DNA from: an uncultured bacterium
GTDB taxonomy: Bacteria > UBA8248 > JACPRG01 > G963555815
NCBI GenBank assembly: GCA_964437725.1
Contig: CAYTIB010000114.1
Span: 2,695-66,694 of the forward strand
Direction of reading: 5' to 3'
DNA: 64,000 nucleotides
The notes below the pieces were generated by a model. It was not told where the DNA came from and did no database searches. It was given only the letters and a program-made list of their open reading frames with translations. Shown piece by piece: positions 15,384-53,212 of the stretch (the first letter of the stretch is position 1; each line of letters begins with the position of its first letter). The position numbers were made by a program, and so were the translations under genes.

Positions 15384-15875
15384 TCAATTTGGTGCGACAG
15401 ATGATGCGGCAATGTTCCAATCCTTCCACTCTTTGAATACTTTTTCTGCCTGCTCTTCGAGGACACCCCGAATGACCTGAATGGTTAGACCGCTCAATTC
15501 CACCACCCGCTCTATGGTGTAATCCTTTAAATCGTATCGTCCGCTAGAAAGCCGGCGAAGAACTTCTGGGCCGGCGCCAATGACAACCGTACTTACACCA
15601 GAATAAATTGCTGCTCCGGCACACATAGGGCAAGGATCACAGTTAGCGTACATTGTACAACCACGCATGTCGCCGGTGCCCAAAAATTGAGCGGCCTGGC
15701 GAATTGCATTCATCTCGGCGTGTGCTGTTGGGTCTTTTGTGGCTACTCCTGTACTTTTTCCCTTACCGATGACTTGATCATTTTTTACGATAATGCCGCC
15801 GTATGGTAAGAATCCATTTTGGACGCCGTCTTCAGCTTCCTGAATGGCCATGGCCATATATTTTGCATGGTCCAT
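15384..15875 (-). CDS. CDA-fold (cytidine/deoxycytidylate deaminase family) nucleobase deaminase, guanine-deaminase-like, copy 1 (most divergent)
   Basis: Zn motifs HAE and PCPMC are intact (…DPTAHAEMNAIR… TMYANCDPCPMCAGA…). ATG 15875 (MDHAKYMAMAI) is preceded by CGGAGAAA. The longer ORF to 15959 would overlap copy 2. Confidence 0.8.
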   Translation of the reverse strand: MDHAKYMAMAIQEAEDGVQNGFLPYGGIIVKNDQVIGKGKSTGVATKDPTAHAEMNAIRQAAQFLGTGDMRGCTMYANCDPCPMCAGAAIYSGVSTVVIGAGPEVLRRLSSGRYDLKDYTIERVVELSGLTIQVIRGVLEEQAEKVFKEWKDWNIAASSVAPN

Positions 15876-15903
15876 CAAGATTTTTCTCCGTATTTTGTAG
15901 TTT

Positions 15904-16407
15904 CTATTGACCGGACCGTAATACATTTGGAGAGACGATCGATAAATCACCAAATTCACGAAAAGCGACCTTAACCTCTTCTTCCAGTATTCCTGTCCGG
16001 ACCTCCATTTCGAAACCGGTTAACTTTAATAAATGGTCGATGTTGTACTTATTCAGATCGTAATACCCTCTGGACTCATTTAGTAACGTTTCCATACTGG
16101 CCCCGATGACGATGGCTTTAACCCCTGAGGCGACAGTTGCCCACGCGCACATAGGACAGGGGTGGCATGAAGTATAAAGTGTGCAATTGGTGAGTTTCGA
16201 GGTTTTAAGGTTTTTTGCAGCATTTCGAACTGCCTCGATCTCCGCGTGTGCAGTCGGATCCCCAGTCGAATTGACGACATTACGTCCTTGTCCCACTACA
16301 TTTCCGTCACGCACGACGATGGACCCAAATGGCCGATCACCAGATTGAACCGCAGCACGCATTTCCCCAATGGCCATAGCCATAAATTTTTCGTGGTCCG
16401 CTTCCAT
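15904..16407 (-). CDS. CDA-fold nucleobase deaminase, guanine-deaminase-like, copy 2
   Basis: MEADHEKFMAMAI… DPTAHAEIEAVR… TLYTSCHPCPMC. The sequence closely parallels the B. subtilis GuaD pattern (GPFGAVIV…DPTAHAE…LYTSCEPCPMC). Confidence 0.85.
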   Translation of the reverse strand: MEADHEKFMAMAIGEMRAAVQSGDRPFGSIVVRDGNVVGQGRNVVNSTGDPTAHAEIEAVRNAAKNLKTSKLTNCTLYTSCHPCPMCAWATVASGVKAIVIGASMETLLNESRGYYDLNKYNIDHLLKLTGFEMEVRTGILEEEVKVAFREFGDLSIVSPNVLRSGQ

Positions 16408-16456: not shown

Positions 16457-16924
16457 TTAAGAAATCGACCAGTCGTATTCGGTGAGAGCCTGTTCAGCAT
16501 CGTCCTGAAGCACTCCCCGGGTGATTTCAAGGGATGCGTGCATCTGTTCGGCGAGGTTTTCTGCCGTATATGTTCTACCCGGCACATTTTGAACCTCCGC
16601 TAGTTTTGCGGATCGGGCCCCTATGAACAATCGCTCAATCTGAGCCATCATTATTGCTCCGGCACACATAGGACAGGGGTCGCAGGACGTATAAAGGGTA
16701 CAACCTGCCAAACTTGCAGTCTTCATGTTGACCGAAGCGTCACGAACTGCATTAACCTCCGCGTGTGTGGTTGGATCTCCAGAGGAGTTAACCACATTGA
16801 AGGCTCGTCCAACGATATTCCCATCGCGCACTACGACTGATCCAAAGGGTTGCTCACCATTTCGGAGCCCTTTACGAGCTTCTGCAATAGCCACAGCCAT
16901 AAACTTCTCATGTTCGGTGCTCAT
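16457..16924 (-). CDS. CDA-fold nucleobase deaminase, guanine-deaminase-like, copy 3
   Basis: MSTEHEKFMAVAI… DPTTHAEVNAVR… TLYTSCDPCPMC. Start ATG 16924 is chosen by alignment with copies 2 and 4 and the upstream GGGAAGGGAAGG. The ORF is open to 16939. Confidence 0.85.
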   Translation of the reverse strand: MSTEHEKFMAVAIAEARKGLRNGEQPFGSVVVRDGNIVGRAFNVVNSSGDPTTHAEVNAVRDASVNMKTASLAGCTLYTSCDPCPMCAGAIMMAQIERLFIGARSAKLAEVQNVPGRTYTAENLAEQMHASLEITRGVLQDDAEQALTEYDWSIS

Positions 16925-16954
16925 TCCTTCCCTTCCCATGTTTGAGGTAAAGCA

Positions 16955-17443
16955 TCAGGTTTGCCGAATTTTCGAATCTAGTATCCATTGGTATTTTGCT
17001 AGTACGAGTTCTGCTTCCTCCTGCAGGACACCCCAGATAACTTGGAGGTCCATTTTGTACATTTCAGCAAGCCGGTCGGGATTGTATGTTCGCTCGCCTG
17101 TCTGGCCTCTCAGTTTAACTAGTGTGCTGCCCCGGCCGGCAATAACTAATGTTCCTATCCTGGCGTTAAGGATAGCTCCGCAACACATCGGACAAGGTTC
17201 ACAAGAAGTATATAGAGTGCTGCCTTCGAGGTTCGGAGTTTTCAATCGTACGGAAGTCTCCCTAACTACTTTGGTTTCCGCGTGTGCAGTGGGGTCGAAC
17301 GAAGAATTGACGGTGTTGTAGGCACTTCCGATCACCTCGTCGTCCCGAACGATAGCACTTCCGAATGGGGCCTCCCCACCACTCAGACCCTTGCGGGATT
17401 CCTCGATGGCCATGGCCATAAACTTCTCATGGTTTTCACTCAT
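16955..17443 (-). CDS. CDA-fold nucleobase deaminase, guanine-deaminase-like, copy 4
   Basis: MSENHEKFMAMAI… DPTAHAETKVVR… TLYTSCEPCPMC. ATG 17443-17441 overlaps the TGA stop (17442-17440) of the upstream LLM gene as an ATGA coupling. Confidence 0.85.
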   Translation of the reverse strand: MSENHEKFMAMAIEESRKGLSGGEAPFGSAIVRDDEVIGSAYNTVNSSFDPTAHAETKVVRETSVRLKTPNLEGSTLYTSCEPCPMCCGAILNARIGTLVIAGRGSTLVKLRGQTGERTYNPDRLAEMYKMDLQVIWGVLQEEAELVLAKYQWILDSKIRQT

Positions 17444-18453
17444 GTTGGAGCTCCTTTTTCGCGATTCCATTGTTCTGCCACAAGTCTAAGAGCATGTTTT
17501 CGGCTCTCCGGGGACCCGCGAAGAGCCAGGATGGGAATTTCAAGTCCCGTCTTGAGGTATTCTGATATACGATCGGTTGCCATCTTCGGCGTACCTGTTA
17601 CCGTAAAGGCATGAACGATTTTCTCTGGCAAAAGACGGCGCATGGTTATCCAGTCTTCCTTGACAAGTGCATTATTAACCGCATCGATATCAAGATTCAC
17701 TCCAGTTAGTTCAAGATTTGTCCGTAATCCAGGATTTCGGAGCAAATAGCCGAGCCCCTTTTGCGCTTCAAGGAGAGCGTCTTCGTAATTTTCTGAAATA
17801 GAGGTCATTATTAGACTGGCATATGTGAAGTTCCCCCCATCATTCCCGCTTCTCTTTCGGCCAATCTCGGTTTGTTCCATGGCCCATTCGATGTACTGGG
17901 GTGATACGGATGCGGAGAAAACGACCCCGTCGGATACTTCTCCGGCAAGTTGGCACATCTTCTCGCCGATGGCCGCAAGATAAATAGGAATTGAGGGTCC
18001 TGGAATTTCGAAGTCAATGTGGGCTCCCTTGAGGCTCAAGGTCTCACCGGTGAACTCTACTCGGTTCCTTTTGGCATCCCAAATTTGTCGTATAGAGCAA
18101 ATCATATCCCGCATATGGGCTAGTGGTTTCTTTAAAGGGATCCCCATCTCACGTATCACCTGTGCATTGGCTGTTCCAGCACAGAGAGCTGTGCGGCCTG
18201 GAGCGTACTCCGCTAATGTTGCTACCCCCATCGCCCAAAAAAGGGGATGAGCAACGTAGGGACTAAGTGCGGTAGGTATGACGAGTGTGTTTTTTGTTTC
18301 TGCTAGAAAGGCGATCGATGAAGAAACGGCATCTCGATATCCTAGGTGTTGATCAGCCCAGATGGAATGAAAACCCGCCTCGTCGGCAATTCGGCACATA
18401 TCAACCATGTCGGAGAGCGAAATGCGTCCATCCAAATCGATACCAAGCTTCAT
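17440..18453 (-). CDS. LLM-class (luciferase-like) flavin/F420-dependent oxidoreductase, Mer-like
   Basis: 337 aa from ATG 18453, which has GGAGG 6 nt upstream. It has the typical LLM N-terminus (MKLGIDLDG…AGFHSIWADQHL…) and a TIM-barrel pattern resembling methylene-H4MPT reductase-type F420 enzymes. Confidence 0.75.
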   Translation of the reverse strand: MKLGIDLDGRISLSDMVDMCRIADEAGFHSIWADQHLGYRDAVSSSIAFLAETKNTLVIPTALSPYVAHPLFWAMGVATLAEYAPGRTALCAGTANAQVIREMGIPLKKPLAHMRDMICSIRQIWDAKRNRVEFTGETLSLKGAHIDFEIPGPSIPIYLAAIGEKMCQLAGEVSDGVVFSASVSPQYIEWAMEQTEIGRKRSGNDGGNFTYASLIMTSISENYEDALLEAQKGLGYLLRNPGLRTNLELTGVNLDIDAVNNALVKEDWITMRRLLPEKIVHAFTVTGTPKMATDRISEYLKTGLEIPILALRGSPESRKHALRLVAEQWNREKGAPT

Positions 18454-18600
18454 TGAAACCTCCAACCAAAAACAAAACTTGTCACCACTTAGTCCGGATA
18501 CCCTCAGACGGTATATGTGCAGCAAAATCCGATGAAAGCGCACCACAGATGACTCGAAAAGAGGAAATCCCTCTCTTCTGAATTCGGGTGGGCATTCCTT

Positions 18601-20907
18601 TTAGCCCCCGTTAGAGGTGATTCCCTTTGCCCGGATGGCTTGGAGCAGGTCCTGGGGTCGGATTGGAACCTTATGACAACGGATGCCTACTGCGTCGTGA
18701 ATTGCATTTGCAATTGCCGCAGCAACAGGATTTACAGGCCCTTCGGAGCAGCCTTTGGCCCCGAGCGGGCCGAGGGGGTCATCCGATTCAATGAAATCGT
18801 GGCGGATAGGTGGCATAGCTTCAGCCTTGGGGACGGCATAGTCGGCCAGGTTTCCGTTTACCGGTTGACCGTTCTCAAACACCATTTCCTCAAAATACGC
18901 CCATCCTAATCCTTGAGAAATGGCACCCTCCGTTTGGCTTTCAGCTCCGAGTGCGGATATGACTCTCCCTACATCGTCCACCGTGACGAATTCCAGAATA
19001 TCCACTTGACCGGTTTCTACATCCACTTCAACCTCGGCAATCTGCGCCACGAATTCATAGCCGGGGGCCACGTTACCATCCAGAAGCGGTGGCCGGATGG
19101 TTTCATTTTCAGCCTCGTAATGGCCGACGGCCATGACTGGGCCCTCATTATTTTGTTCCTTCTTGACAGCTTCTCCGATACTCATTCCCCGGTCAGGGGA
19201 TCCCTTAACGAAAATCCGGCCTTGTTCAAAAACAAGATCATCCGAGTCCACCTCGTACTCTTTGGACACGACGGCTGCAAGTTTCTTTTTCAGCTCCACT
19301 GCTGCCCGATGAACGGCGTTACCACCAATCATAGTGATTCGGCTTGCAAAGGACCCAAGAGTGTAAGGGGCGACATCGGTGTCTGGCTCGCACATGTCAA
19401 TATCTTTGACATCCACGCCGAGCTCTTCCGCAGCGAACATACTAAGAACTGTGGGTGCGCCTTGTCCGTTATCCCCTTCCCCAATGAGCAAACCGATTCG
19501 CCCGTCGTCGTGGGCGTGGAGAATCGCTGTGGAGCCTTCCCACCCTGCAATCACACGGTTTCCGCTTACGTGATTGGCGCATGCTAATCCAATACCTCGT
19601 CGGCGGGTTCCGGAGTCCGACTGACGGGTTTCCTCGCGTTTGCGTTTCCAATCAGTCATTTCTACAGCACGCTCGACGCATTCGGGAAGAGCATTTGTAA
19701 TTGCGTTCCACTTGTGAATCGAGAGCTCACCAGGGTTGAGCACATTTTGAAGACGTAGATCCGGAGGGTCGATATTCAACTGTTCAGCAAGCATGTCCAT
19801 CATGATTTCACCGGGAACCGTTGTTTGCGGTGTCCCAAATCCCCTAAATGCGCCCTTCGGAGGATTGTTGGTGTACATTAATTTTGCCTTCACGCCGCAG
19901 GCTTTCCATCGATAAAGTGATGGCCAACGGGTTACCATCGTATTGACGATACCCGGAGAGGCCCCAGCGTGCGCTCCACATTCTGCGACAATGTTCAGGG
20001 AATGCGCAGTGAGGGTTCCATTTTTCATGGCCCCGATTTTGAGTTGGACCTTTGCGGGCACCCGCATTCGTGTTGCCCCCCGAAAGGATTCAGTTCGGAG
20101 GTTTTCAAGCTTAACTGGACGACCAGACTTCAGGGCCAGTAGTCCGTTGATAAGAGCATTGGGATCATCAATTGATTTTCCACCGAAGGAGCCACCAACA
20201 TAAGGCTGAACCAGTCGAACCTTGGAAGTTTCCAGCCCCAACCCCATTGCGATCCTGTCTCTGCCAAGAAAAACTTTTAGGCAGGGGACATACATGACCA
20301 GCTTGTTTCCATCGGTTGGATCGGCAACGGTACAGTTTGGTTCGGTAAAGGCGTGATACTGTGTTTTTACTATAAATTCTTCTTCTAGAACGATATCGGA
20401 AGCTGCAAAGGTGGTTTCCAGGTTCTCACCTTTCTGAAAATCTAATTCGTGACAGATGTTATTTGGGGCCTCGTCGTGAATGAGAAGGGCGTTATCCGCC
20501 ATCGCGTCTTCGGGAGTGAGGTAGGCAGGAAGCGTTTCATACTCTACTTTTATGCGATCAATGGCTTCCTCGGCGATCTCCCGAGACACTGCGGCAACCG
20601 CCGCAACCTCGTGACCGATGAACCATACTTTGTTTATAGCGAGGGCGGTTTGATCTTTCCGTAATGTTCCAAATCCTGCACCCGGAGGGATGTCCTGACC
20701 AGTCACAATTGTCTTGACACCGGGAACCTTCAAGGCTTCAGAGGTGTCAATTTTCAGAATTCGCGCGTGAGAATGCACACTTCGCAATACCTTGCCATGC
20801 AGCAGACCCGGAAAATTCATATCTGTAGCAAACTTGGCTTGCCCCGATACCTTCACCGGGGACCCAACCATCGGGGTACGCGAACCTATCACTCTAAATG
20901 AACTCAT
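18601..20907 (-). CDS. Xanthine dehydrogenase/aldehyde oxidase family molybdopterin-binding large subunit
   Basis: 768 aa with the N-terminal a/b hammerhead (…RTPMVGSPVKVSGQAKFATDM…HGKVLRS.H.HA.I…), GGSFGGK, and the C-terminal GAKGCSEGP block containing the catalytic Glu position. No fused or adjacent 2Fe-2S or FAD subunit is present. Confidence 0.85.
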   Translation of the reverse strand: MSSFRVIGSRTPMVGSPVKVSGQAKFATDMNFPGLLHGKVLRSVHSHARILKIDTSEALKVPGVKTIVTGQDIPPGAGFGTLRKDQTALAINKVWFIGHEVAAVAAVSREIAEEAIDRIKVEYETLPAYLTPEDAMADNALLIHDEAPNNICHELDFQKGENLETTFAASDIVLEEEFIVKTQYHAFTEPNCTVADPTDGNKLVMYVPCLKVFLGRDRIAMGLGLETSKVRLVQPYVGGSFGGKSIDDPNALINGLLALKSGRPVKLENLRTESFRGATRMRVPAKVQLKIGAMKNGTLTAHSLNIVAECGAHAGASPGIVNTMVTRWPSLYRWKACGVKAKLMYTNNPPKGAFRGFGTPQTTVPGEIMMDMLAEQLNIDPPDLRLQNVLNPGELSIHKWNAITNALPECVERAVEMTDWKRKREETRQSDSGTRRRGIGLACANHVSGNRVIAGWEGSTAILHAHDDGRIGLLIGEGDNGQGAPTVLSMFAAEELGVDVKDIDMCEPDTDVAPYTLGSFASRITMIGGNAVHRAAVELKKKLAAVVSKEYEVDSDDLVFEQGRIFVKGSPDRGMSIGEAVKKEQNNEGPVMAVGHYEAENETIRPPLLDGNVAPGYEFVAQIAEVEVDVETGQVDILEFVTVDDVGRVISALGAESQTEGAISQGLGWAYFEEMVFENGQPVNGNLADYAVPKAEAMPPIRHDFIESDDPLGPLGAKGCSEGPVNPVAAAIANAIHDAVGIRCHKVPIRPQDLLQAIRAKGITSNGG

Positions 20908-28767: not shown

Positions 28768-29103
28768 GCGTTCTTTTCTCCTTTGCGACAAACGGTGTTT
28801 TGTCGTTGCGTTAGTAGAATATAGGCTAACTTTGTTCCTCAGAGATTATGCTGTAGTCTCGGTTGCTCGGATAGGTTCATTGCGAAATCGAGTCGTATGG
28901 GAATGAACCGGAGCGACAGCTTTTCTGCTTTTGTCGAATTTTCTCCGGGTGGGTATGGCAACTCACGGTTTGTACTTGAAGGTGTGTCGACATCGGTACC
29001 GCCACCTTCGCGGTTCCTGGGGGTTCAACGAGAATGTTCTCCCAGGTAGGTGATTTTCCCACCCTCTCACGGAGCAGAGATACCTCTTGCTGGTGAGAAG
29101 TGC

Positions 29104-29469
29104 TCAGTTCGTGAATTCGTTTTTAGCGTATTCCGAGCTTTCCATTTTTTCACCGAACTCCACTACCAGGTCTCGTATAAGGCGGTAGCGAGGTACGGGT
29201 TCCACGACCATCCCTTCCTCAAGCGGAATCTGACAGGAAAGGACAGATTTCCCATTAACTCGCATTTGACAAGTACGGCAATCTTCAATCCGGCACGACC
29301 ACCGGACGGCGAGCGAATGGTCAATCTCTTCTTGAATGTAGCGCAATGCATCGAGGACTTTAATGCCCTCCCACTTCGGGACGACAAACTCCTCTAAACG
29401 ACCTTCCGTCTCTCCTGCATCTGGATCCCGACGATATACCTTAAACCGCAATTTGGGGTCGCTCATCAA
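29104..29469 (-). CDS. SdhB/FrdB N-terminal-domain-only [2Fe-2S] protein
   Basis: 121 aa. The sequence …FKVYRRDPD…VLDALRYIQEE.DHSLA.RWSCRIEDCRTCQMRVNGKSVLSC…IRDLVVE matches the 2Fe-2S domain of SdhB (C-x4-C-x2-C-x11-C). It stops where the 4Fe-4S/3Fe-4S domain would begin, and it overlaps the 3' end of the flavoprotein gene. Confidence 0.7.
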   Translation of the reverse strand: MMSDPKLRFKVYRRDPDAGETEGRLEEFVVPKWEGIKVLDALRYIQEEIDHSLAVRWSCRIEDCRTCQMRVNGKSVLSCQIPLEEGMVVEPVPRYRLIRDLVVEFGEKMESSEYAKNEFTN

Positions 29470-36050: not shown

Positions 36051-36122
36051 GTGTTCTGCAATGCGAGAGATACCTACTAAAGGAAAAGTGCTGCGATTCT
36101 GAGTCCTAAGTTGGAGATAGAA

Positions 36123-37106
36123 ATGAGTCAGAGCGAAGAGTTGTTGAAGAAGTTCAAAGATGTGCCGCCCCCACATAAACCGGACTGGGAGACAAAGGGA
36201 GTCGATTTCCGTGTTCAGGAACCATGGGCAATTAATGAGAAATTTTTTATCAGTGCTGCTGTGGTTGGTAGCTTTGTAGGCAAGGATCAAAACCCAAAGC
36301 AGCCCACATTTCCCGAAGAGGTACAAGAAGCTTTTTTTGCTGCTATAGAGGCTGGTGCCTCGGGGATCCACGTACACGTTCGGGATTACGATGAAAAGCC
36401 CACAGCAAAGGCAGAAATCTACCATAAAGTTTTAGATCCAATCATTTCCAAATACGGAGACGATATCATTATCGATGGCGGGACAATGACCGGGCGCACC
36501 TTTGAGGAATGCATGATTCCGGTTACGGAGGGCCTGTTTGATCTTTGTATCGTTAATCCTACCTCGGGTTTGCTGGGAGATCGGTTGCGGGCGATGCGCC
36601 CTGTGACCATGCAGGCCCAAGCCGATTATTACAATGCGATGGGAGTTCGAAATATTATTGACGTCCATGAGGCATCGAGTATTTGGAATGCTAAGCGTCA
36701 CCTAATTGAGACGGGAGTTTTGAAGCCCCCATTTGTCTGGCATCTTTTACCGGGATTGCCAGGAACTCTTTATATGCCTAACGTGCGGGCGACATGGGAT
36801 GGGGTGACCTTTCTGGTGGATCGAATTCGAGAAATAGATCCTGATTCCATCATTATTGCTAGCGATGCAGGTCGAGCGTCGATTTATGGAACGGCCATCA
36901 ACCACCTTCTCGGTTTGCACCTTCGTGTTGGTATGGAAGACGTGCTCTACAAGTATCCGCACAGGAACGATTTGATTGAATCCACCGCGGAGGCAGTCCA
37001 CGAAGCCATTGAATTAGGAAATATGTTGGGTCGGGAACCCATGTCAGCTAAAGAATTTCGCGCTCTCGCCAATCTGGGAAGCCGCAGCGAGAGTGATGCC
37101 ACATAG
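36123..37106 (+). CDS. Beta-keto acid cleavage enzyme family (BKACE / DUF849, 3-keto-5-aminohexanoate cleavage enzyme-like)
   Basis: TIM-barrel pattern with the Zn-ligand block GASGIHVHVRD and a later …RVGMED… block characteristic of BKACE. ATG 36123 is preceded by GGAGA. Confidence 0.7.
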   Translation: MSQSEELLKKFKDVPPPHKPDWETKGVDFRVQEPWAINEKFFISAAVVGSFVGKDQNPKQPTFPEEVQEAFFAAIEAGASGIHVHVRDYDEKPTAKAEIYHKVLDPIISKYGDDIIIDGGTMTGRTFEECMIPVTEGLFDLCIVNPTSGLLGDRLRAMRPVTMQAQADYYNAMGVRNIIDVHEASSIWNAKRHLIETGVLKPPFVWHLLPGLPGTLYMPNVRATWDGVTFLVDRIREIDPDSIIIASDAGRASIYGTAINHLLGLHLRVGMEDVLYKYPHRNDLIESTAEAVHEAIELGNMLGREPMSAKEFRALANLGSRSESDAT

Positions 37107-37193
37107 TTGGCGGGTTGAAGTGGATCCTCTCGGGACGTGGTTTAGAGCGTGTAGGGGCCCAATTTCATAGAATAGACACTACCGATTTCAGGT

Positions 37194-37928
37194 TTGTCTG
37201 GGCGCTTTGCGTTTATCAAAAAACAAAAAATTACTAGGGGAGGGGTGAGGTTGGATACATCAGCTATGGGGATGCTTTTATCTCAAATGGAGTGTCCGGC
37301 TTCGTTGGAGGCCGATTTTCACAAATGGTATAACGATGAGCATATCCCGGAGCGGATGGCCGTTCCCGGATTTCTGAGTGCCGCGCGCTATGAAGTGGTC
37401 GGAAGGGGTCCGAGATTTCTCGCCCGCTACAATTTGAAGGATCTGAGTGCTCTGGATCACCCCGATTATGTAAAAGTAAAAAAGCATCAGTCTGAGGAAA
37501 CCGAAAAGATTCTCTCCTCAGTTTCTGTTTTCACCCGTTACCTTGCAACTGTCTGTTCGGTTCGTCGGCGGGAGGATGTTCCAGAACAACCTGGGGATTC
37601 TCCCTATATTGTGATTGATGCACTTAGCGTCCCCGAGGAAGCTCGGGAGGACCTGGTAAGTTGGTATGAGCAAGAGCTTGTGGACAACTTACTCAGTGTG
37701 GAGGGATGGTGGAGATGCTTACGACTCAGTGTTGTCTCTGGGGAACCTGAATCCTGGACTGATATTTTCATCCACGAGGTGGCTAGTCTTGAGGCGCTAG
37801 AGGCTCCTGAGAGGCAAGACTCGTGGGAGACGTCTTGGGCTCAACGTCTCCGCAGTCAGTCTTGTTTCGAAGCAAGGCAGACGATCCTCTATGAAAAATT
37901 TTTGGATTGGCAAACTCAAATTATGTAG
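37194..37928 (+). CDS. Hypothetical protein with two internally repeated ferredoxin-like (EthD/DABB-like) halves
   Basis: Two related segments are present: LEADFHKWYNDEHIPERMAVPGFLSAARYEVV and AREDLVSWYEQELVDNLLSVEGWWRCLRLSVV. The family is not firmly recognised and the start is uncertain (internal Met codons near 37260). Confidence 0.4.
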   Translation: MSGRFAFIKKQKITRGGVRLDTSAMGMLLSQMECPASLEADFHKWYNDEHIPERMAVPGFLSAARYEVVGRGPRFLARYNLKDLSALDHPDYVKVKKHQSEETEKILSSVSVFTRYLATVCSVRRREDVPEQPGDSPYIVIDALSVPEEAREDLVSWYEQELVDNLLSVEGWWRCLRLSVVSGEPESWTDIFIHEVASLEALEAPERQDSWETSWAQRLRSQSCFEARQTILYEKFLDWQTQIM

Positions 37929-37961
37929 AACCCCAATCTGGGGTCTCAGGGAGAAAAGCTG

Positions 37962-39164
37962 ATGACTTCGCTTGCCCTCACGAACATCGAATCCGTCATT
38001 TCCGGTTCACTCGAAACTGGGCTGATTGATGCAGACACCATTTTGGTTGAGGACGGTAGGATCAAGGAACTGGGACAGGGGTTGGATACTTCCGCTTGTG
38101 ACAGGATTTTAAATTGTGTCGGTACTACTGTTGCACCCGGCCTAATTGATGGACACCTCCACGTGGTTATTGGGGATTATACACCCCGACAAAAGACCGT
38201 CGGTTTTTTAGAAAGTTGGGTGCATGGGGGAGTTACCAGTGGTGTTTCTCCTAGCGAAGTCCATGCGCCGGGACGCCCTAAAGACCCTGTGGGTGTTAAG
38301 GCCTTGGCTATTGCTGCACACAAATGCTTCAGTCAATTTCGCCCGGGCGGGTTCAAGATGCATGCAGGTTCAGTAATTATTGAACCAGGGTTGGAGGAAA
38401 AAGACTTTAAAGAGATGGCGGCCGCGGGTGTCTGGCTTGCTAAAGTTGGTTTTGGAGATTTTGAAAACCAGGCGGATTGTGCGCCAATCGTTCGTATTGC
38501 TCAGCAATATGGTTTCAAAGTCCTTTGCCACACGGGTGGGGCTTCTATCCCTGGTAGTTCCCCGGTGATGGCCGAGGATCTTTTGGAGATCCGGCCAGAT
38601 ATAGCCGCTCACATCAACGGAGGCACGAAGGCCTTATCTGATGAAGGATTAGAACGGGTCATTCATGAAACGGATATCGATTTGCAAATATGCCAGTGCG
38701 GTAACTTGCGTAGCGCACTGCTCACCGTCGAGCGTTGCAAAGGGCTGGGCCAATTAGATCGAATCGATATTGCTAGCGACTCACCGTCTGGAACAGGAAT
38801 TTTACCGATGGGGGTAATCAAATCCATTGTCGAGCTTGCGTCTCTTGCCGACCTCAAAGCTCAAGAAGTTTGGGCACTGGGAAGCGGGACTCCAGCTAAG
38901 CATTGGGGGCTGAAGGATCAAGGTACGATTCAGGTGGGTGCCGCAGCGGATTTGGTTATCATGGACGCTCCATTGGGTTCTGTGGCAACAAATGCTTTGG
39001 AGGCAATCGAATTAGGAGACATTCCCGGGATTACAGGTGTTTTGATCGATGGCCGAGTTTGGGCTATGAAGAGTCGGAATACACCCGCTGCTACTCGATT
39101 TTGTGAATGGGAACGCGTGGGGTCTGGGGATTCTCCTAATGTGGCTGATCACCTGGGTTGGTAG
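37962..39164 (+). CDS. Metal-dependent amidohydrolase-superfamily protein (enamidase-like)
   Basis: 400 aa. The N-terminal beta-sandwich is followed by PGLIDGHLHVVIGDYTPRQ (HxH metal motif), with later H…H and D ligand positions typical of the amidohydrolase fold. Confidence 0.6.
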   Translation: MTSLALTNIESVISGSLETGLIDADTILVEDGRIKELGQGLDTSACDRILNCVGTTVAPGLIDGHLHVVIGDYTPRQKTVGFLESWVHGGVTSGVSPSEVHAPGRPKDPVGVKALAIAAHKCFSQFRPGGFKMHAGSVIIEPGLEEKDFKEMAAAGVWLAKVGFGDFENQADCAPIVRIAQQYGFKVLCHTGGASIPGSSPVMAEDLLEIRPDIAAHINGGTKALSDEGLERVIHETDIDLQICQCGNLRSALLTVERCKGLGQLDRIDIASDSPSGTGILPMGVIKSIVELASLADLKAQEVWALGSGTPAKHWGLKDQGTIQVGAAADLVIMDAPLGSVATNALEAIELGDIPGITGVLIDGRVWAMKSRNTPAATRFCEWERVGSGDSPNVADHLGW

Positions 39165-39409
39165 GGAGTATGATCAAGCAGTCAAGACTGAATTGACTAG
39201 GTTTTAATTTTCGCCCTACTTCCTTTTGCCAAACCCCCGGTTAGCCTTGTGGTACGGATGTTGCGAGGTTCCTTGCAACGTGGAAAGTGCCAGTTCTATT
39301 GATAATCATGGATCGTAAGCCAGGTAAATCAGCAAAATTGTAATTCAAGGGTGTTGTGGATACCCTTTTAGCTCAGTTTCACCGATACCCAAGGGAAAGG
39401 GGATGATAC

Positions 39410-40003
39410 ATGGCCTGGATTTGTACCGTTGATGAATCAAAGGCTGAGGGGCTTCTCAAGGAAAACTATGAAATTCTCAAGAAATCACGAGGGGATATTC
39501 CGAACGTCCACAAAGTCCATAGCATTAAGCCGGAGCTTATGGCGGCCTATCGTGAATTCGGATCTGCCGTAACCTTCGGTGCAACAAGTTTGGGAAGAGA
39601 ACGAGAGGAAATACTCGCCGTGGTTATCTCCGCGTTATTAGGGTGTAAGTACTGAACTGTTTCTCACGGAGAGTTTCTCTGTGATGTTACCTCAGGAGAT
39701 GCAAAATCTAAGGCTATTGCCCTGAAGGAAGATTATCGGAAAGCTGGTCTTACCCCAGCTGATCAAGCAATGGTGGAGTTCGCGGAGAAAATCACTCTCA
39801 AGCCTAGTACCATCGTCTGTTCGGATGTCGAAAATCTACGGACGCATGGATTCGACGATCGGGCCATTCTGGAAATTGTGACAGTTTCGGCCTATCGAAA
39901 TTACATTGCTCGTATAGCCAGTGCCTTGGGAGTAGAGGTTGACGAAAGTATATTTCGCAATGATCCGGAAGTGCGGGCCAGATTGGAAGAGGGACTAGCT
40001 TAG
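39410..40003 (+). CDS. AhpD/carboxymuconolactone-decarboxylase-like peroxidase-related selenoprotein (in-frame UGA = Sec at 39653-39655)
   Basis: Track ORFs 39410-39655 and 39770-40003 share a frame, and TGA 39653 is the only stop between them. Read-through gives 197 codons of continuous CMD/AhpD-like sequence with the TGA at the second Cys of the CxxC motif (GC-K-Y-U-TVSHG). A SECIS-like hairpin follows, and selA/selB are in the window. Confidence 0.8.
39664..39684 (+). promoter_or_regulatory. SECIS-like hairpin for the AhpD-like selenoprotein
   Basis: 8-bp stem (39664-39671 pairing with 39677-39684, one G.U) with apical loop AGUUU (39672-39676). The stem begins 9 nt after the UGA. Confidence 0.6.
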
Positions 40004-40089
40004 TGAGGATCGTCTGTTGTAGGTAAATCCCAAAAAATGAGCCCGTGGGCTTTTCGACGTAATTTGGAGGCTGACCTAAGGTTTGTTGC

Positions 40090-40401
40090 TCAGGGTCTTT
40101 TTTCCTTCTTGAGAGGGTGCTTAGCTCGGGCTTCTCCTTCCGCATGAAGTTTTGTGTCGTGTTCCCAAAGGATTTTTTCCATTGTTTTTCGAACTTCTTC
40201 TGCCTCTTCGGATATTTCTAGTGCTACGAGACACTTCAAGGATATTGAGAGTGCTTTGTAGTTGTAAGGGTATAAATTTGGGAGGGTAAGGTAGGCTTCG
40301 CGGGCCAATGCCAAGGCTTTTTCTGCATCACTGTTTTTGAGAGCAGAGTTTGAGGATTCTAAAAGCTCATGATGATGCTCCAGGTTTGGGTCAGTGTCCA
40401 T
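40090..40401 (-). CDS. Small helical (TPR-like) hypothetical protein
   Basis: 103-aa ORF. It is helical, carries an Ala/Leu repeat and has a basic tail. No family is recognised. Confidence 0.35.
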   Translation of the reverse strand: MDTDPNLEHHHELLESSNSALKNSDAEKALALAREAYLTLPNLYPYNYKALSISLKCLVALEISEEAEEVRKTMEKILWEHDTKLHAEGEARAKHPLKKEKRP

Positions 40402-40554
40402 TGTTTTTCCTCAATCTTTGGAAGTCCGTTCCCCTCTTTTTCGATTCGATAAAAATTGTGTAGCTAATCAAAAAAGATCATTCAAATGCAATTTGTAAAA
40501 GAGAATTCAATTACGCTAAACAGTTTCCTATGAATTAGGGTTTCCAGGTTTCCT

Positions 40555-52528: not shown

Positions 52529-53212
52529 ATGTTCGATAGAAACCATTTTTTGCCCAGACCTCCTGGTCCCCTTTTTGGTCTTTGGTCCTGGAGGTACTTA
52601 AATAAATTCAAGACCTTAAAGTTGGTAAGTAGTAAGAGGGTTAAATCGTTTTATGAAAAATTCAAAAATCTCTATCCACCTGGGTCGAAGTTCCCAACGG
52701 TTGAGCTGAAAACCTCAGATGGACATGTGGTCAAAACCTCAGATTTTCTTGGCAAAAAACATTTCGTTCTTTTTACAGGGGCGATCACTTGACCACCATT
52801 CCGGCGACAGTTGTTGCCTATGGAAGAATTGAAAACGAAATATATGGGAAGAGACGTAGAATTCTTTGCAATGTATGTTCGCGAACCGCATGCTGGCGAA
52901 AATTGGTTTAAACAATTTCGTAATCACGAAAGTTATGAGCATAAACGCGAGGTTGCTGAGGAGTTGGTCCAAATCAAAAATTTGACGATTGCTGTTCTCG
53001 TGGACAGAATTGACGAGAAATACCACGGGTTACTTGGAAATTTGCCGAATTTCTGCTATGTGGTGAACAAACAAGGGTTTGTGGAATACAAGGCGACCTG
53101 GTTACTTGCTGATGCGGTAGATGAGGTTTTAGCGGAGATGGTAACCAGGGACGACCCTACTCAGCCTATCAAAAAAACATTGGACACCTCAGGCGTTGGA
53201 ACGGAAATCTGA
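52529..53212 (+). CDS. Iodothyronine-deiodinase-like thioredoxin-fold selenoprotein (in-frame UGA = Sec at 52790-52792)
   Basis: Track ORFs 52523-52792 and 52811-53212 share a frame, and TGA 52790 is the only stop. Read-through gives …HFVLFTGAIT-U-PPFRRQL…VEFFAMYVREPHAGENW…. This matches the deiodinase active-site signature (FGS.T-U-PPF … F..IYI.EAH..DGW). A SECIS-like hairpin follows. ATG 52529 is preceded by GGGAGA. Confidence 0.85.
52796..52823 (+). promoter_or_regulatory. SECIS-like hairpin for the deiodinase-like selenoprotein
   Basis: Inner 6-bp stem 52803-52808 / 52813-52818 (one G.U) with apical loop AGUU (52809-52812). Outer stem CCAT/ATGG at 52796-52799 / 52820-52823. The loop lies about 17-20 nt after the UGA. 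Confidence 0.6.

What the first reader, a model, noticed from the sequence alone, without database searches (positions are those of the whole stretch)
39410..40003. AhpD/CMD-like selenoprotein with a C-x-x-U redox motif and its own SECIS-like hairpin
**Seen in the sequence**
- ORFs 39410-39655 and 39770-40003 share a frame (39770-39653 = 117 nt = 39 codons).
- The single intervening stop is TGA at 39653-39655, and the 38 intervening codons are open.
- Read-through gives 197 codons: …REEILAVVISALLGC-K-Y-[UGA]-TVSHGEFLCDV…AGLTPADQAMVEFAEKITLKP…RAILEIVTVSAYRNYIARIASALGVEVDE….
- Nine nt after the UGA an 8-bp stem (39664-39671/39677-39684) carries the loop AGUUU.

**Established knowledge**
- The carboxymuconolactone decarboxylase/AhpD-like peroxidase-related family has a conserved …S..N.C.YC…H… motif whose two Cys form the redox centre.
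- Sec commonly replaces one Cys of such motifs.

**Inference**
- The gene encodes a Sec-containing AhpD-like thiol-selenol oxidoreductase, and annotation as two fragments or a pseudogene would be wrong.
- Its apical loop (AGUUU) resembles that of the second selenoprotein gene in this window (AGUU), which is consistent with one SelB recognising both.
Basis: partly seen in the sequence, partly recalled or inferred. Interest (0 to 1): 0.75.

Follow-up and report, generated by a model that had tools for sequence, protein, structure and literature searches.

The report
AhpD-like selenoprotein gene with SECIS
This is one intact gene for a small redox enzyme whose in-frame TGA encodes selenocysteine rather than stop, but it belongs to a selenoprotein family described since 2005, so it is an annotation correction rather than a discovery.

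Summary
Window 39410-40003 (+) is a single 197-codon gene interrupted only by TGA 39653-39655.

- **Family:** with Cys in place of the TGA, the product matches NCBIfam TIGR01926 (peroxidase-related enzyme) end to end, at 113.9 bits against a cutoff of 81.8.
- **Redox motif:** the TGA aligns with the second Cys of the AhpD-type C-x-x-C-x-x-x-H motif.
- **Conservation of the TGA:** 17 of 20 independently retrieved metagenomic relatives that cover the site, down to about 35% identity, have TGA at exactly this codon. So do an 85%-identical genome and two independent assemblies of the same organism.
- **Hairpin:** all 16 distinct Sec-form sequences aligned (15 retrieved loci plus the window) carry a hairpin in the same register, with compensatory changes. 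Only 1 of 6 Cys forms has one. The window's hairpin meets all four published bacterial SECIS criteria.
- **Coding constraint:** the 38 codons between the TGA and the second ATG have dN/dS of about 0.045.
- **Genetic code:** TGA ends 13 of 46 long ORFs in the window, so it is an ordinary stop elsewhere.
- **Second Sec gene:** a deiodinase-like gene with an in-frame TGA lies at 52529-53212.

"AhpD-like protein, TIGR01926, CxxU" is already a catalogued prokaryotic selenoprotein family. This is a new member of a known kind and of low interest. Its practical value is fixing a split gene call. Sec insertion and enzyme activity are inferred, not shown.

The parts
39397..39403 (+). Shine-Dalgarno-like purine run (AAGGGGA), 6 nt before the ATG
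   Evidence: Read directly from the sequence. L001 has AAGGAGA at the equivalent place. No such element precedes the internal ATG at 39770.
39410..40003 (+). Complete coding sequence of an AhpD-like (TIGR01926, peroxidase-related) selenoprotein: 197 residues with Sec at position 82
   Evidence: TIGR01926 scores 113.9 bits (cutoff 81.8) over residues 3-178. Pfam CMD PF02627 scores 32.6 bits (cutoff 23). PDB 6K40 matches at E=4.9e-35.
39644..39646 (+). Cys79 codon (TGT), the first residue of the C-x-x-U redox motif and the inferred resolving Cys
   Evidence: This position is less conserved than the second one: it is Ser or Asn in some homologues.
39653..39655 (+). In-frame UGA, inferred selenocysteine codon (Sec82); aligns with the second Cys of C-x-x-C-x-x-x-H
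   Evidence: TGA occupies this same codon in the 85%-identical genome locus L001, in 17 of 20 metagenome loci, and in L002 and L003.
39665..39667 (+). His86 codon (CAC), the conserved His of the AhpD-type C-x-x-C-x-x-x-H signature; it lies inside the 5' arm of the hairpin
   Evidence: Invariant in A1. It is the dominant residue in that column across the family.
39664..39684 (+). SECIS-type hairpin: stem 39664-39671(72) / 39676(77)-39684, apical loop AGUUU (or a GUU triloop closed by A-U), with 16-17 nt between the UGA and the loop
   Evidence: It meets the four bSECIS criteria quoted in PMC13188914. It is conserved in register in all 16 distinct Sec-form sequences, with compensatory changes.
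39656..39769 (+). The 38 'linker' codons that a standard ORF caller leaves unannotated; they form part of the enzyme core (T-V-S-H-G... through ...A-D-Q-A)
   Evidence: dN/dS is 0.045 against L001, with synonymous sites saturated. The segment is covered by the TIGR01926 and 6K40 alignments.

Best explanation
Window 39410-40003 is one gene for a ~22 kDa AhpD-like thiol/selenol oxidoreductase. It belongs to NCBIfam TIGR01926 ('peroxidase-related enzyme') within the carboxymuconolactone decarboxylase/AhpD superfamily.

**Translation (inferred).** UGA 39653-39655 is decoded as selenocysteine. A hairpin starts 9 nt after the UGA, and its G-U-containing apical loop lies 16-17 nt downstream of the codon. 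The hairpin acts as a bacterial SECIS: it recruits SelB-GTP-Sec-tRNA(Sec) to the ribosome, so Sec82 is inserted instead of termination.

**Enzyme chemistry (inferred).** Sec82 takes the place of the second Cys in the C-x-x-C-x-x-x-H motif, giving C79-K-Y-U82-T-V-S-H86. By analogy with AhpD, Sec82 is the attacking nucleophile on a peroxide or on an oxidised peroxiredoxin-type partner. It then forms a selenenylsulfide with Cys79, which a dithiol donor (lipoyl- or thioredoxin-type) reduces.

**Shown here:** the single frame, family membership, the Cys/Sec alignment, conservation of the TGA and of the hairpin across divergent relatives, purifying selection across the supposed gap, and ordinary use of TGA as a stop elsewhere in the window.

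**Not shown:** actual Sec insertion, presence of the selABCD machinery in this genome, the substrate, and the electron donor.
For: 1. **Family membership.** TIGR01926 scores 113.9 bits (cutoff 81.8) over residues 3-178 and spans the TGA. Pfam CMD is above its cutoff. PDB 6K40 ('Alkyl hydroperoxide reductase AhpD') matches at E=4.9e-35, with CVYCAVSH aligned to CKY[U]TVSH.
2. **Cys/Sec pair.** P0001-P0004 (51-55% identity) have Cys at the TGA column. Cys is the majority residue there among the domains aligned from the best 150 hits of an exhaustive search that found 6224 relatives at E<=0.001.
3. **TGA conservation.** The TGA is at the same codon in L001, which is 85% identical at the protein level. 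It is also there in 17 of 20 metagenome loci covering the site, retrieved with peptide patterns that do not include the site, down to ~35% identity. L002 and L003 have it too.
4. **Hairpin.** It is present in the same register in 16 of 16 distinct Sec-form sequences but in only 1 of 6 Cys forms (Fisher p=2.3e-4, not corrected for phylogeny). GGA->GCA (Gly->Ala) is always accompanied by the synonymous change CUC->CUG (GC:10, CG:4 at pair 29-39). L008 changes four codons and re-forms a -13.5 kcal/mol stem. Synonymous sites in the hairpin codons are more conserved than in the rest of the gene (permutation p=0.006).
5. **bSECIS criteria.** The four published criteria (PMC13188914, Fig. 2 legend, read) are all met: a 9-bp stem, a GUU/AGUUU loop with G followed by U, 16-17 nt spacing, and -10.7 kcal/mol.
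6. **Coding constraint.** dN/dS is 0.045 in codons 83-120, against 0.067 and 0.111 in the flanking parts.
7. **Standard code.** 13 of 46 long ORFs in the window end in TGA.
8. **Second Sec candidate.** A deiodinase-like gene in the same window has an in-frame TGA and its own hairpin.
9. **Literature.** AhpD-like CxxU selenoproteins are an established family (PMC1088965, PMC2398784; PMC13188914 lists 'AhpD-like protein, TIGR01926, CxxU').
Against: - No tRNA-Sec, selA, selB or selD was found in the 64-kb window (only a subset of ORFs was scanned against protein families). The rest of the genome could not be searched, so Sec-decoding capacity is inferred only from the two Sec-type genes.
- The hairpin alone is not thermodynamically exceptional (z = -1.35).
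- Formal covariation is modest: 2 pairs change on both sides, and 21-22 of 500 shuffles reach the observed score.
- Part of the stem comes for free from the conserved His-Gly...Leu-Cys codons. One Cys-form relative (L025) has a hairpin in the same register at about -9 kcal/mol.
- Under a strict uninterrupted-helix evaluation, 5 of the 16 Sec-form hairpins fall just short of -7.5 kcal/mol (-6.2 to -6.7).
- No member of this selenoprotein family is known to me to have been shown experimentally to contain Se. The papers read here are computational.
Confidence: 0.9

Rival explanations
1. The gene is a pseudogene, or a genuinely split gene. On this reading the TGA is a nonsense mutation, and at most an 81-aa fragment and a 77-aa fragment are made.
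For: Standard ORF calling gives two fragments, and public gene calls on L002 list them that way. The hairpin alone is not statistically unusual.
Against: - The same TGA is kept in 17 of 20 metagenome relatives down to 35% identity, in the 85%-identical genome locus L001, and in three assemblies of this organism.
- There are no other stops or frameshifts.
- dN/dS is 0.045 in the 38 codons that neither fragment would cover, and those codons include the catalytic His.
- No Shine-Dalgarno element precedes ATG 39770.
Confidence: 0.02
2. The UGA is read through, but not as selenocysteine. It might be read as Cys via a tRNA(Sec)-like tRNA charged with Cys and delivered by SelB, or as Trp/Cys by near-cognate suppression, or under a reassigned genetic code.
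For: - Nothing here shows which amino acid is inserted.
- A few library proteins have Trp at this column (2 C-W-H, 2 N-W). That would be expected if gene callers applied code 4 or 25 to some contigs.
Against: - A general reassignment is excluded, because TGA terminates 13 of 46 long ORFs in the window.
- The position is the catalytic Cys of a redox motif. Together with a SelB-type hairpin at the canonical spacing, that is the classical signature of Sec.
- A second gene with the deiodinase T-U-P-P-F context is in the window.
Confidence: 0.05
3. The hairpin is only a by-product of conserved codons (His-Gly-Glu-Phe-Leu-Cys) and is not the element that directs recoding. The real signal would lie elsewhere, or read-through would be independent of context.
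For: CACGG (His-Gly) is naturally complementary to CUGUG (Leu-Cys). The Cys-form L025 forms a hairpin in the same register. Shuffle statistics for covariation are moderate.
Against: - The hairpin persists when the peptide changes to H-A-E-F-L-R or H-G-A-G-L-R, through compensatory and synonymous substitutions.
- Synonymous sites in it are unusually conserved (p=0.006), and L008 rebuilds it with four simultaneous changes.
- 5 of 6 Cys forms lack it.
- The L025 hairpin is equally well explained as a relic left after Sec-to-Cys replacement, since its clade is nested among Sec clades.
Confidence: 0.05

Closest known systems
AhpD-like selenoprotein family ('AhpD-like protein', TIGR01926/COG2128, CxxU): Zhang & Gladyshev 2005 (PMC1088965), GOS 2008 'AhpD-like 1' (PMC2398784), 2026 review table (PMC13188914)
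   Same: It matches the same curated model (TIGR01926) above its cutoff. It has the same CxxU motif, with Sec replacing the second Cys. A bSECIS-type hairpin with a loop G lies directly downstream. Cys-containing homologues are widespread.
   Different: Nothing essential differs. This copy comes from an uncultured bacterium and is split into two ORFs in public gene calls. Its subclade has a ~20-residue C-terminal extension (F-x-x-D-P-E-x-R-x-x-L-E-x-G-L) beyond the end of the TIGR01926 model.
The 6K40 protein, deposited as 'Alkyl hydroperoxide reductase AhpD'; probably the Deinococcus radiodurans AhpD-like protein DR1765 whose crystal structure PMC8945050 cites (Zhao et al. 2020). That identification is my inference: the PDB code was not seen in the paper.
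   Same: It is the closest solved structure by sequence (E=4.9e-35), with residues 8-178 of the profile aligned and CVYCAVSH aligned to CKY[U]TVSH. For DR1765, the knockout is H2O2-sensitive, and complementation is much weaker when the two CxxC cysteines are mutated (as reported in PMC8945050).
   Different: The 6K40 protein has Cys, not Sec, at the second motif position. No biochemical data exist for the window protein.
Mycobacterium tuberculosis AhpD (alkylhydroperoxidase D; reduces AhpC using a lipoamide-dependent system)
   Same: It shares the C-x-x-C-x-x-x-H signature and the CMD/AhpD superfamily fold. From memory, MtAhpD uses Cys133 (the second Cys) as the nucleophile, with His137 and Glu118. 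The spacing here is identical: Glu67, Cys79, Sec82, His86.
   Different: The sequence relationship is very remote. No M. tuberculosis AhpD chain reached E<=0.001 in the PDB search. The TIGR00778 ahpD core-domain model scores 19.3 bits, below its cutoff of 27.8. No ahpC neighbour is present. The partner and reductant are unknown.
Bacterial SECIS elements (bSECIS consensus model; E. coli fdhF type)
   Same: It is a stem-loop inside the coding sequence immediately 3' of the UGA, with a small apical loop holding G then U in its first positions, 16-17 nt spacing, and a stable upper stem.
   Different: It is a short single helix with no bulged U of the kind found in E. coli fdhF. The spacing is at the lower limit of the published range. 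It has no match to any Rfam family at gathering threshold.

Membership tests
NCBIfam TIGR01926 peroxidase-related enzyme (the model under which the 'AhpD-like protein' CxxU selenoprotein family is catalogued) | Whole-protein score above the curated cutoff (81.8 bits), with a near full-length match | tested here: met
   113.9 bits, E=6.9e-33, residues 3-178 against profile positions 2-176 of 178, with Cys substituted for the TGA.
AhpD-like selenoprotein family (CxxU) | In-frame TGA aligned with a conserved Cys of Cys-containing homologues (a Cys/Sec pair) within a C-x-x-C redox motif | tested here: met
   The TGA aligns with the invariant second Cys in A1. Cys is the majority residue in that column among 190 aligned domains. 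6K40 has C-V-Y-C there.
AhpD-like selenoprotein family (CxxU) | TGA-containing homologues in other organisms at the same position | tested here: met
   The 85%-identical genome locus L001 and 17 of 20 metagenome loci have the TGA at this codon, at 35-85% identity overall.
Bacterial SECIS (bSECIS consensus model as quoted in PMC13188914 Fig. 2) | 3-9 nt apical loop on a 4-16 bp upper stem | tested here: met
   8-bp stem with a 5-nt loop AGUUU, or 9-bp stem with a 3-nt loop GUU.
Bacterial SECIS (bSECIS consensus model) | At least one G in the first two loop positions, usually followed by G or U | tested here: met
   The loop A-G-U-U-U fits N1-G-U-N-N2 with N1/N2 = A/U able to pair (criteria read).
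Bacterial SECIS (bSECIS consensus model) | [quoted passage not shown] | tested here: met
   16 nt (39656-39671) to the AGUUU loop, or 17 nt to the GUU loop. This is at the lower limit of the range.
Bacterial SECIS (bSECIS consensus model) | Minimum free energy of -7.5 kcal/mol or lower | tested here: met
   -10.7 to -11.5 kcal/mol for the isolated hairpin.
Bacterial SECIS (functional definition) | Binds SelB and directs Sec insertion at the upstream UGA | not testable with these tools
   This needs a reporter assay, a SelB binding assay or 75Se labelling.
Selenoprotein (organism-level requirement) | The genome encodes selA, selB, selC (tRNA-Sec) and selD | tested here: inconclusive
   None was found in the 64-kb window. 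ARAGORN and Rfam find only tRNA-Asn, and only a subset of the window's ORFs was scanned against protein families. A second Sec-type gene in the window is indirect support.
NCBIfam NF041238 AhpD_rel_CFYUT alkylhydroperoxidase-related (seleno)protein | Score above the cutoff of 175 bits | tested here: not met
   54.8 bits, and it matches only the C-terminal half of a 357-position model. That is a different, related selenoprotein family.
NCBIfam NF053654 YciW-related (seleno)protein | Score above the cutoff of 310 bits | tested here: not met
   28.5 bits.
Bona fide AhpD (M. tuberculosis type; TIGR00778 ahpD core domain) | Score above the domain model's cutoff of 27.8 bits | tested here: not met
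   19.3 bits. No M. tuberculosis AhpD chain appears among the PDB hits at E<=0.001. It should therefore be called 'AhpD-like', not AhpD.
Pfam PF02627 Carboxymuconolactone decarboxylase (CMD) family | Score above the gathering threshold of 23 bits | tested here: met
   32.6 bits over residues 41-86, which include the C-x-x-U motif.

The most novel reading that the evidence does not exclude
In this TIGR01926 subfamily, Sec may be the ancestral and prevailing state. One homologous SECIS would then have been inherited across clades that are only ~35% identical, and the Cys forms (for example the P0001/L025 clade) would be secondary Sec-to-Cys revertants. One of them still carries a 'fossil' SECIS hairpin in the original register. 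That would give a datable series for studying how SECIS elements decay after Sec loss. Separately, the gene's constant placement after an amidohydrolase/DUF4286/BKACE cluster in this lineage could mean a metabolic rather than an antioxidant role.
Probability: 0.3. Interest if true: 0.35.

Novelty: new member of a known kind. Interest (0 to 1): 0.15.

Why it matters
The main value is in annotation. Standard gene callers, including the public calls on an identical contig (L002), split this gene into an 81-aa and a 77-aa hypothetical protein. They drop the 38 codons that hold the catalytic His. Reading it as one selenoprotein restores a complete redox enzyme.

Together with the deiodinase-like gene at 52529-53212, it marks this uncultured bacterium as a selenium user. 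The comparative data set assembled here (16 Sec forms and 6 Cys forms with DNA) is a small, clean illustration of SECIS conservation inside coding sequence.

It does not change what is known. The family, the CxxU motif and its SECIS were described in 2005-2008 and are catalogued in current reviews and databases.

Tried and rejected
- **Exhaustive search with the read-through protein (Cys at 82).** I used an alignment of P0001-P0004 plus the two window fragments instead.
- **Rfam at gathering thresholds.** Only the tRNA matched; no SECIS family did.
- **Covariance model R1 built from the 16 SECIS regions.** With filters off it finds only the element itself in the window (60.8 bits). The next hit (15462-15508, minus strand, 10.1 bits, E=0.33) lies inside a deaminase gene with no in-frame TGA and is chance. 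The model does not detect the deiodinase-like gene's hairpin.
- **Motif-based scans for other TGA read-through genes.** These were very noisy. The apparent 342-codon read-through at 16457-17470 (minus strand) is two adjacent complete cytidine-deaminase-family genes, not a Sec gene. A possible TGA-plus-hairpin at 29104 (minus strand) was not pursued.
- **Conserved gene neighbourhood as a clue to function.** The amidohydrolase, DUF4286, 103-aa and transglutaminase-like neighbours are shared only with L001 and L002, which are the same lineage. The amidohydrolase next to the Cys forms L025 and L029 is only a distant superfamily relative (E about 6e-4). No neighbour recurs across the other Sec loci.
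- **Promoter and terminator scan of 39100-40450.** Nothing was found beyond chance expectation.
- **Structure prediction.** Not run. Sequence matches to solved AhpD-like structures at E of 1e-24 to 1e-35 already settle the fold.
- **Organism identity.** Could not be determined. The L001 record is titled only 'MAG: bacterium'.
Full report
**1. The observation**

The + strand of window 39410-40003 is one reading frame of 198 codons. Its only internal stop is TGA at 39653-39655. A standard ORF list shows two pieces, 39410-39655 (81 aa) and 39770-40003 (77 aa). The 38 codons between the TGA and the second ATG are open.

RNAfold additionally closes the loop's A and last U, giving a 9-bp stem and a GUU triloop at about -10.7 to -11.5 kcal/mol.

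Taken alone, the fold is not significant. The z-score is -1.35, and 19 of 200 shuffles fold as well. The case therefore has to rest on comparison with other sequences.

The TGA is not an assembly artefact. Two independent assemblies from other samples carry the same TGA and hairpin: L002 is identical over all 594 nt and L003 is ~99% identical.

**2. What the protein is**

With Cys written in place of the TGA, the 197-residue product matches NCBIfam TIGR01926, 'peroxidase-related enzyme'. The score is 113.9 bits against a curated cutoff of 81.8, covering residues 3-178 of a 178-position model. The match runs straight through the TGA and the 'linker'. Pfam CMD (PF02627) is also above threshold.

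Related selenoprotein models are far below their cutoffs: NF041238 AhpD_rel_CFYUT and NF053654 YciW-related. So is the AhpD core-domain model TIGR00778. The right name is therefore 'AhpD-like', not AhpD.

A profile of the protein and its relatives finds five solved full-length AhpD-like structures at E values from 5e-35 to 3e-24, plus one shorter AhpD-core chain at 7e-06. The best hit is 6K40, deposited as 'Alkyl hydroperoxide reductase AhpD', in which C-V-Y-C-A-V-S-H aligns with C-K-Y-[TGA]-T-V-S-H. This is probably the Deinococcus radiodurans DR1765 protein. A review reports that the DR1765 knockout is H2O2-sensitive and that complementation is much weaker when the two CxxC cysteines are mutated (PMC8945050).

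**3. The Cys/Sec pair**

Four full-length homologues (51-55% identity) have Cys at the TGA column. The first Cys of the motif is Ser in one of them.

An exhaustive profile search found 6224 relatives at E<=0.001. Among 190 aligned domains from the best 150 hits, the commonest pattern is C..C...H (79 domains), followed by N..C...H (19) and S..C...H (16). The position occupied by the TGA is thus the better-conserved Cys of the two.

From my own knowledge of M. tuberculosis AhpD (Glu118, Cys130, Cys133, His137), the second Cys is the nucleophile. The spacing here (Glu67, Cys79, Sec82, His86) is identical. That equivalence is recalled, not tested.

**4. Conservation of the TGA**

The one close relative in the genome collection (L001) is 85% identical at the protein level and has TGA at the same codon.

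A metagenome scan used two peptide patterns that lie away from the site, so it was not biased toward TGA. It returned 21 loci, of which 20 cover the site. Seventeen of these have an in-frame TGA at exactly this codon, at identities from 62% down to about 35%. The other three have Cys.

Between the window and L001, synonymous sites are saturated (dS about 1-1.7), yet dN/dS is 0.067 for codons 1-81, 0.045 for the 'linker' codons 83-120, and 0.111 for codons 121-197. The segment that a two-ORF annotation would discard is the most constrained part of the gene.

In the window as a whole, TGA ends 13 of 46 long ORFs, so the organism uses the standard code. A Shine-Dalgarno-like AAGGGGA precedes ATG 39410, and nothing comparable precedes ATG 39770.

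**5. The hairpin as a SECIS**

All 16 distinct Sec-form sequences aligned (15 retrieved loci plus the window) have a hairpin in the same register, starting 11-13 nt after the U of UGA. The peptide encoded across it varies (H-G-E-F-L-C, H-A-E-F-L-R, H-G-A-G-L-R), but the helix is kept.

- Wherever the Gly codon GGA becomes the Ala codon GCA, the Leu codon opposite changes synonymously from CUC to CUG. At that pair the counts are GC in 10 sequences and CG in 4.
- Among the seven closest Sec forms, synonymous sites in the hairpin codons are more conserved than those in the rest of the gene (permutation p=0.006).
- The single deviant, L008, changes four codons at once and re-forms a -13.5 kcal/mol stem.

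Only one of six Cys-form loci has a hairpin in this register (Fisher p=2.3e-4, not corrected for relatedness).

The formal shuffle test on the 8-bp helix is only moderate: 83.6% of cells are paired, and 21-22 of 500 shuffles reach the observed values. Part of the stem also follows from the conserved His-Gly and Leu-Cys codons. I state both as weaknesses.

A 2026 review quotes four criteria for the bacterial SECIS model: a 3-9 nt loop on a 4-16 bp stem, G in the first two loop positions, 16-37 nt from the UGA to the loop, and MFE of -7.5 kcal/mol or lower (PMC13188914). The window element passes all four. With a strict perfect-helix evaluation, 11 of 16 Sec forms pass and the other five miss narrowly (-6.2 to -6.7 kcal/mol). 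One of six Cys forms passes.

**6. Does this organism use Sec?**

No tRNA-Sec or sel gene was found in the window (only a subset of ORFs was scanned against protein families), and I could not search the rest of the genome.

This is an ORF from ATG 52529 to 53212 with an in-frame TGA at 52790-52792, in the context F-T-G-A-I-T-[TGA]-P-P-F. It matches Pfam T4_deiodinase at 46.6 bits (cutoff 27) and the thioredoxin-fold families Redoxin and AhpC-TSA. A hairpin GGCGAC-AGUU-GUUGCC sits with its loop 16 nt after the UGA. Deiodinase-like proteins are another catalogued prokaryotic selenoprotein family (PMC1088965, PMC13188914). Two Sec-type genes within 13 kb are good indirect evidence for the trait.

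**7. Evolution and context**

In a neighbour-joining tree without support values, the Cys clade L025/L028/L029 is sister to the window's Sec clade. Further Sec clades (L010-13, L014, L016-20, L019) lie outside them, and a second Cys pair (L021/L022) is nested near L016-20. Because the hairpin is positionally and partly sequence-homologous across all Sec clades, an ancestral Sec with later Sec-to-Cys replacements is a reasonable reading. The same-register hairpin in the Cys-form L025 could then be a relic. This is inference only.

Gene order is shared only with L001 and L002: DUF4286 protein, amidohydrolase, a 245-nt gap, the AhpD-like gene, then a 103-aa ORF and a transglutaminase-like gene on the opposite strand. 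The 100 nt upstream of the start are not alignable between the window and L001 (30% identity without gaps, about chance level). No neighbour recurs across the more distant loci. The context therefore gives no functional lead.

**8. Mechanism proposed**

*Shown:* one gene, its family, the Cys/Sec pair, the conserved TGA and hairpin, and purifying selection across the gap.

*Inferred:* SelB carrying Sec-tRNA(Sec) binds the apical part of the hairpin as the ribosome reaches the UGA, and Sec82 is inserted. In the enzyme, Sec82 attacks a peroxide or an oxidised peroxiredoxin-type partner, helped by His86 and probably Glu67. It then forms a selenenylsulfide with Cys79, which a dithiol donor reduces.

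I put the probability that this is a genuine Sec-encoding AhpD-like gene at about 0.9. The identity of the substrate and reductant is open.

**9. Comparison with what is known, and verdict**

AhpD-like proteins with a CxxU motif were reported as a new selenoprotein family from the Sargasso Sea in 2005: 27 sequences, assigned to COG2128, with a predicted SECIS figured (PMC1088965). In the GOS data set, 'AhpD-like 1' was among the most abundant families, with 299 selenoproteins and 902 Cys homologues (PMC2398784). The 2026 review lists 'AhpD-like protein, TIGR01926, CxxU' (PMC13188914), and a 2026 database uses the family as its worked example (PMC13326102).

The window gene meets the defining features of that family that can be tested by computation. 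It is a new member of a known kind. Its practical consequence is correcting a split gene call. Interest: 0.15.

Noticed in passing
window 52529-53212 (+); TGA 52790-52792; hairpin 52803-52818: This is a second candidate selenoprotein gene. It has an in-frame TGA in the context F-T-G-A-I-T-U-P-P-F and matches Pfam T4_deiodinase (46.6 bits, cutoff 27) plus Redoxin and AhpC-TSA. It also hits NCBIfam NF038285 'deiodinase family protein', but below cutoff (73.8 vs 250). A GGCGAC-AGUU-GUUGCC hairpin places its loop 16 nt after the UGA. The ORF list shows only the C-terminal piece, 52811-53212.
   Followed up: partly
L025 4001-4594 (Cys-form homologue P0001), just after the TGC codon that aligns with the window's TGA: This Cys-form relative keeps a hairpin (GCACGGC-GCGAU-GCUGUGU, about -9 kcal/mol) in the same register as the SECIS of the Sec forms. 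Five other Cys forms lack one. It may be a relic SECIS left after Sec-to-Cys replacement, or a by-product of the His-Gly...Leu-Cys codons.
   Followed up: partly
L010 709 onward, L011 798 onward, L012 770 onward: In these Sec-form relatives the frame continues for about 330 codons after the TGA and matches the AhpD-like domain twice. They therefore look like tandem two-domain proteins with Sec only in the first domain. Many library hits of 300-600 aa also show two matched stretches.
   Followed up: no
window 15384-15959, 16457-16939 and 16955-17470 (all on the minus strand): Three cytidine/deoxycytidylate-deaminase-family ORFs lie close together. For the latter two, each matches the full Pfam domain. 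They are in the same frame, separated by a single TGA, and so mimic a read-through gene. The family of the first rests only on reading its H-A-E...C-x-x-C zinc-binding signature in the translation. A luciferase-like monooxygenase and a xanthine-dehydrogenase-family molybdoprotein follow at 17440-20907.
   Followed up: partly
window 29104-29106 (minus strand), with a hairpin about 9 nt downstream (around 29063-29094): ORF 29104-29469 (minus strand, 121 aa) ends in TGA. A stable imperfect hairpin follows (-12 to -13 kcal/mol), and the frame stays open for another 46 codons. There is no redox motif at the TGA, so it could simply be a terminator-like structure.
   Followed up: no
Library proteins, column aligned with the window's TGA: A few predicted proteins have Trp at the Sec/Cys column (2 with C-W-H and 2 with N-W). 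This is what one would see if gene callers translated a Sec-TGA with genetic code 4 or 25.
   Followed up: no
window 36111-39164 (+): A BKACE (beta-keto acid cleavage enzyme) gene, a DUF4286 gene and an amidohydrolase-superfamily gene lie directly upstream on the same strand. The DUF4286 and amidohydrolase genes are syntenic in L001. An unrelated amidohydrolase also precedes the Cys-form homologues in L025-L027 and L029. That recurrence is only at superfamily level and may be coincidence.
   Followed up: partly
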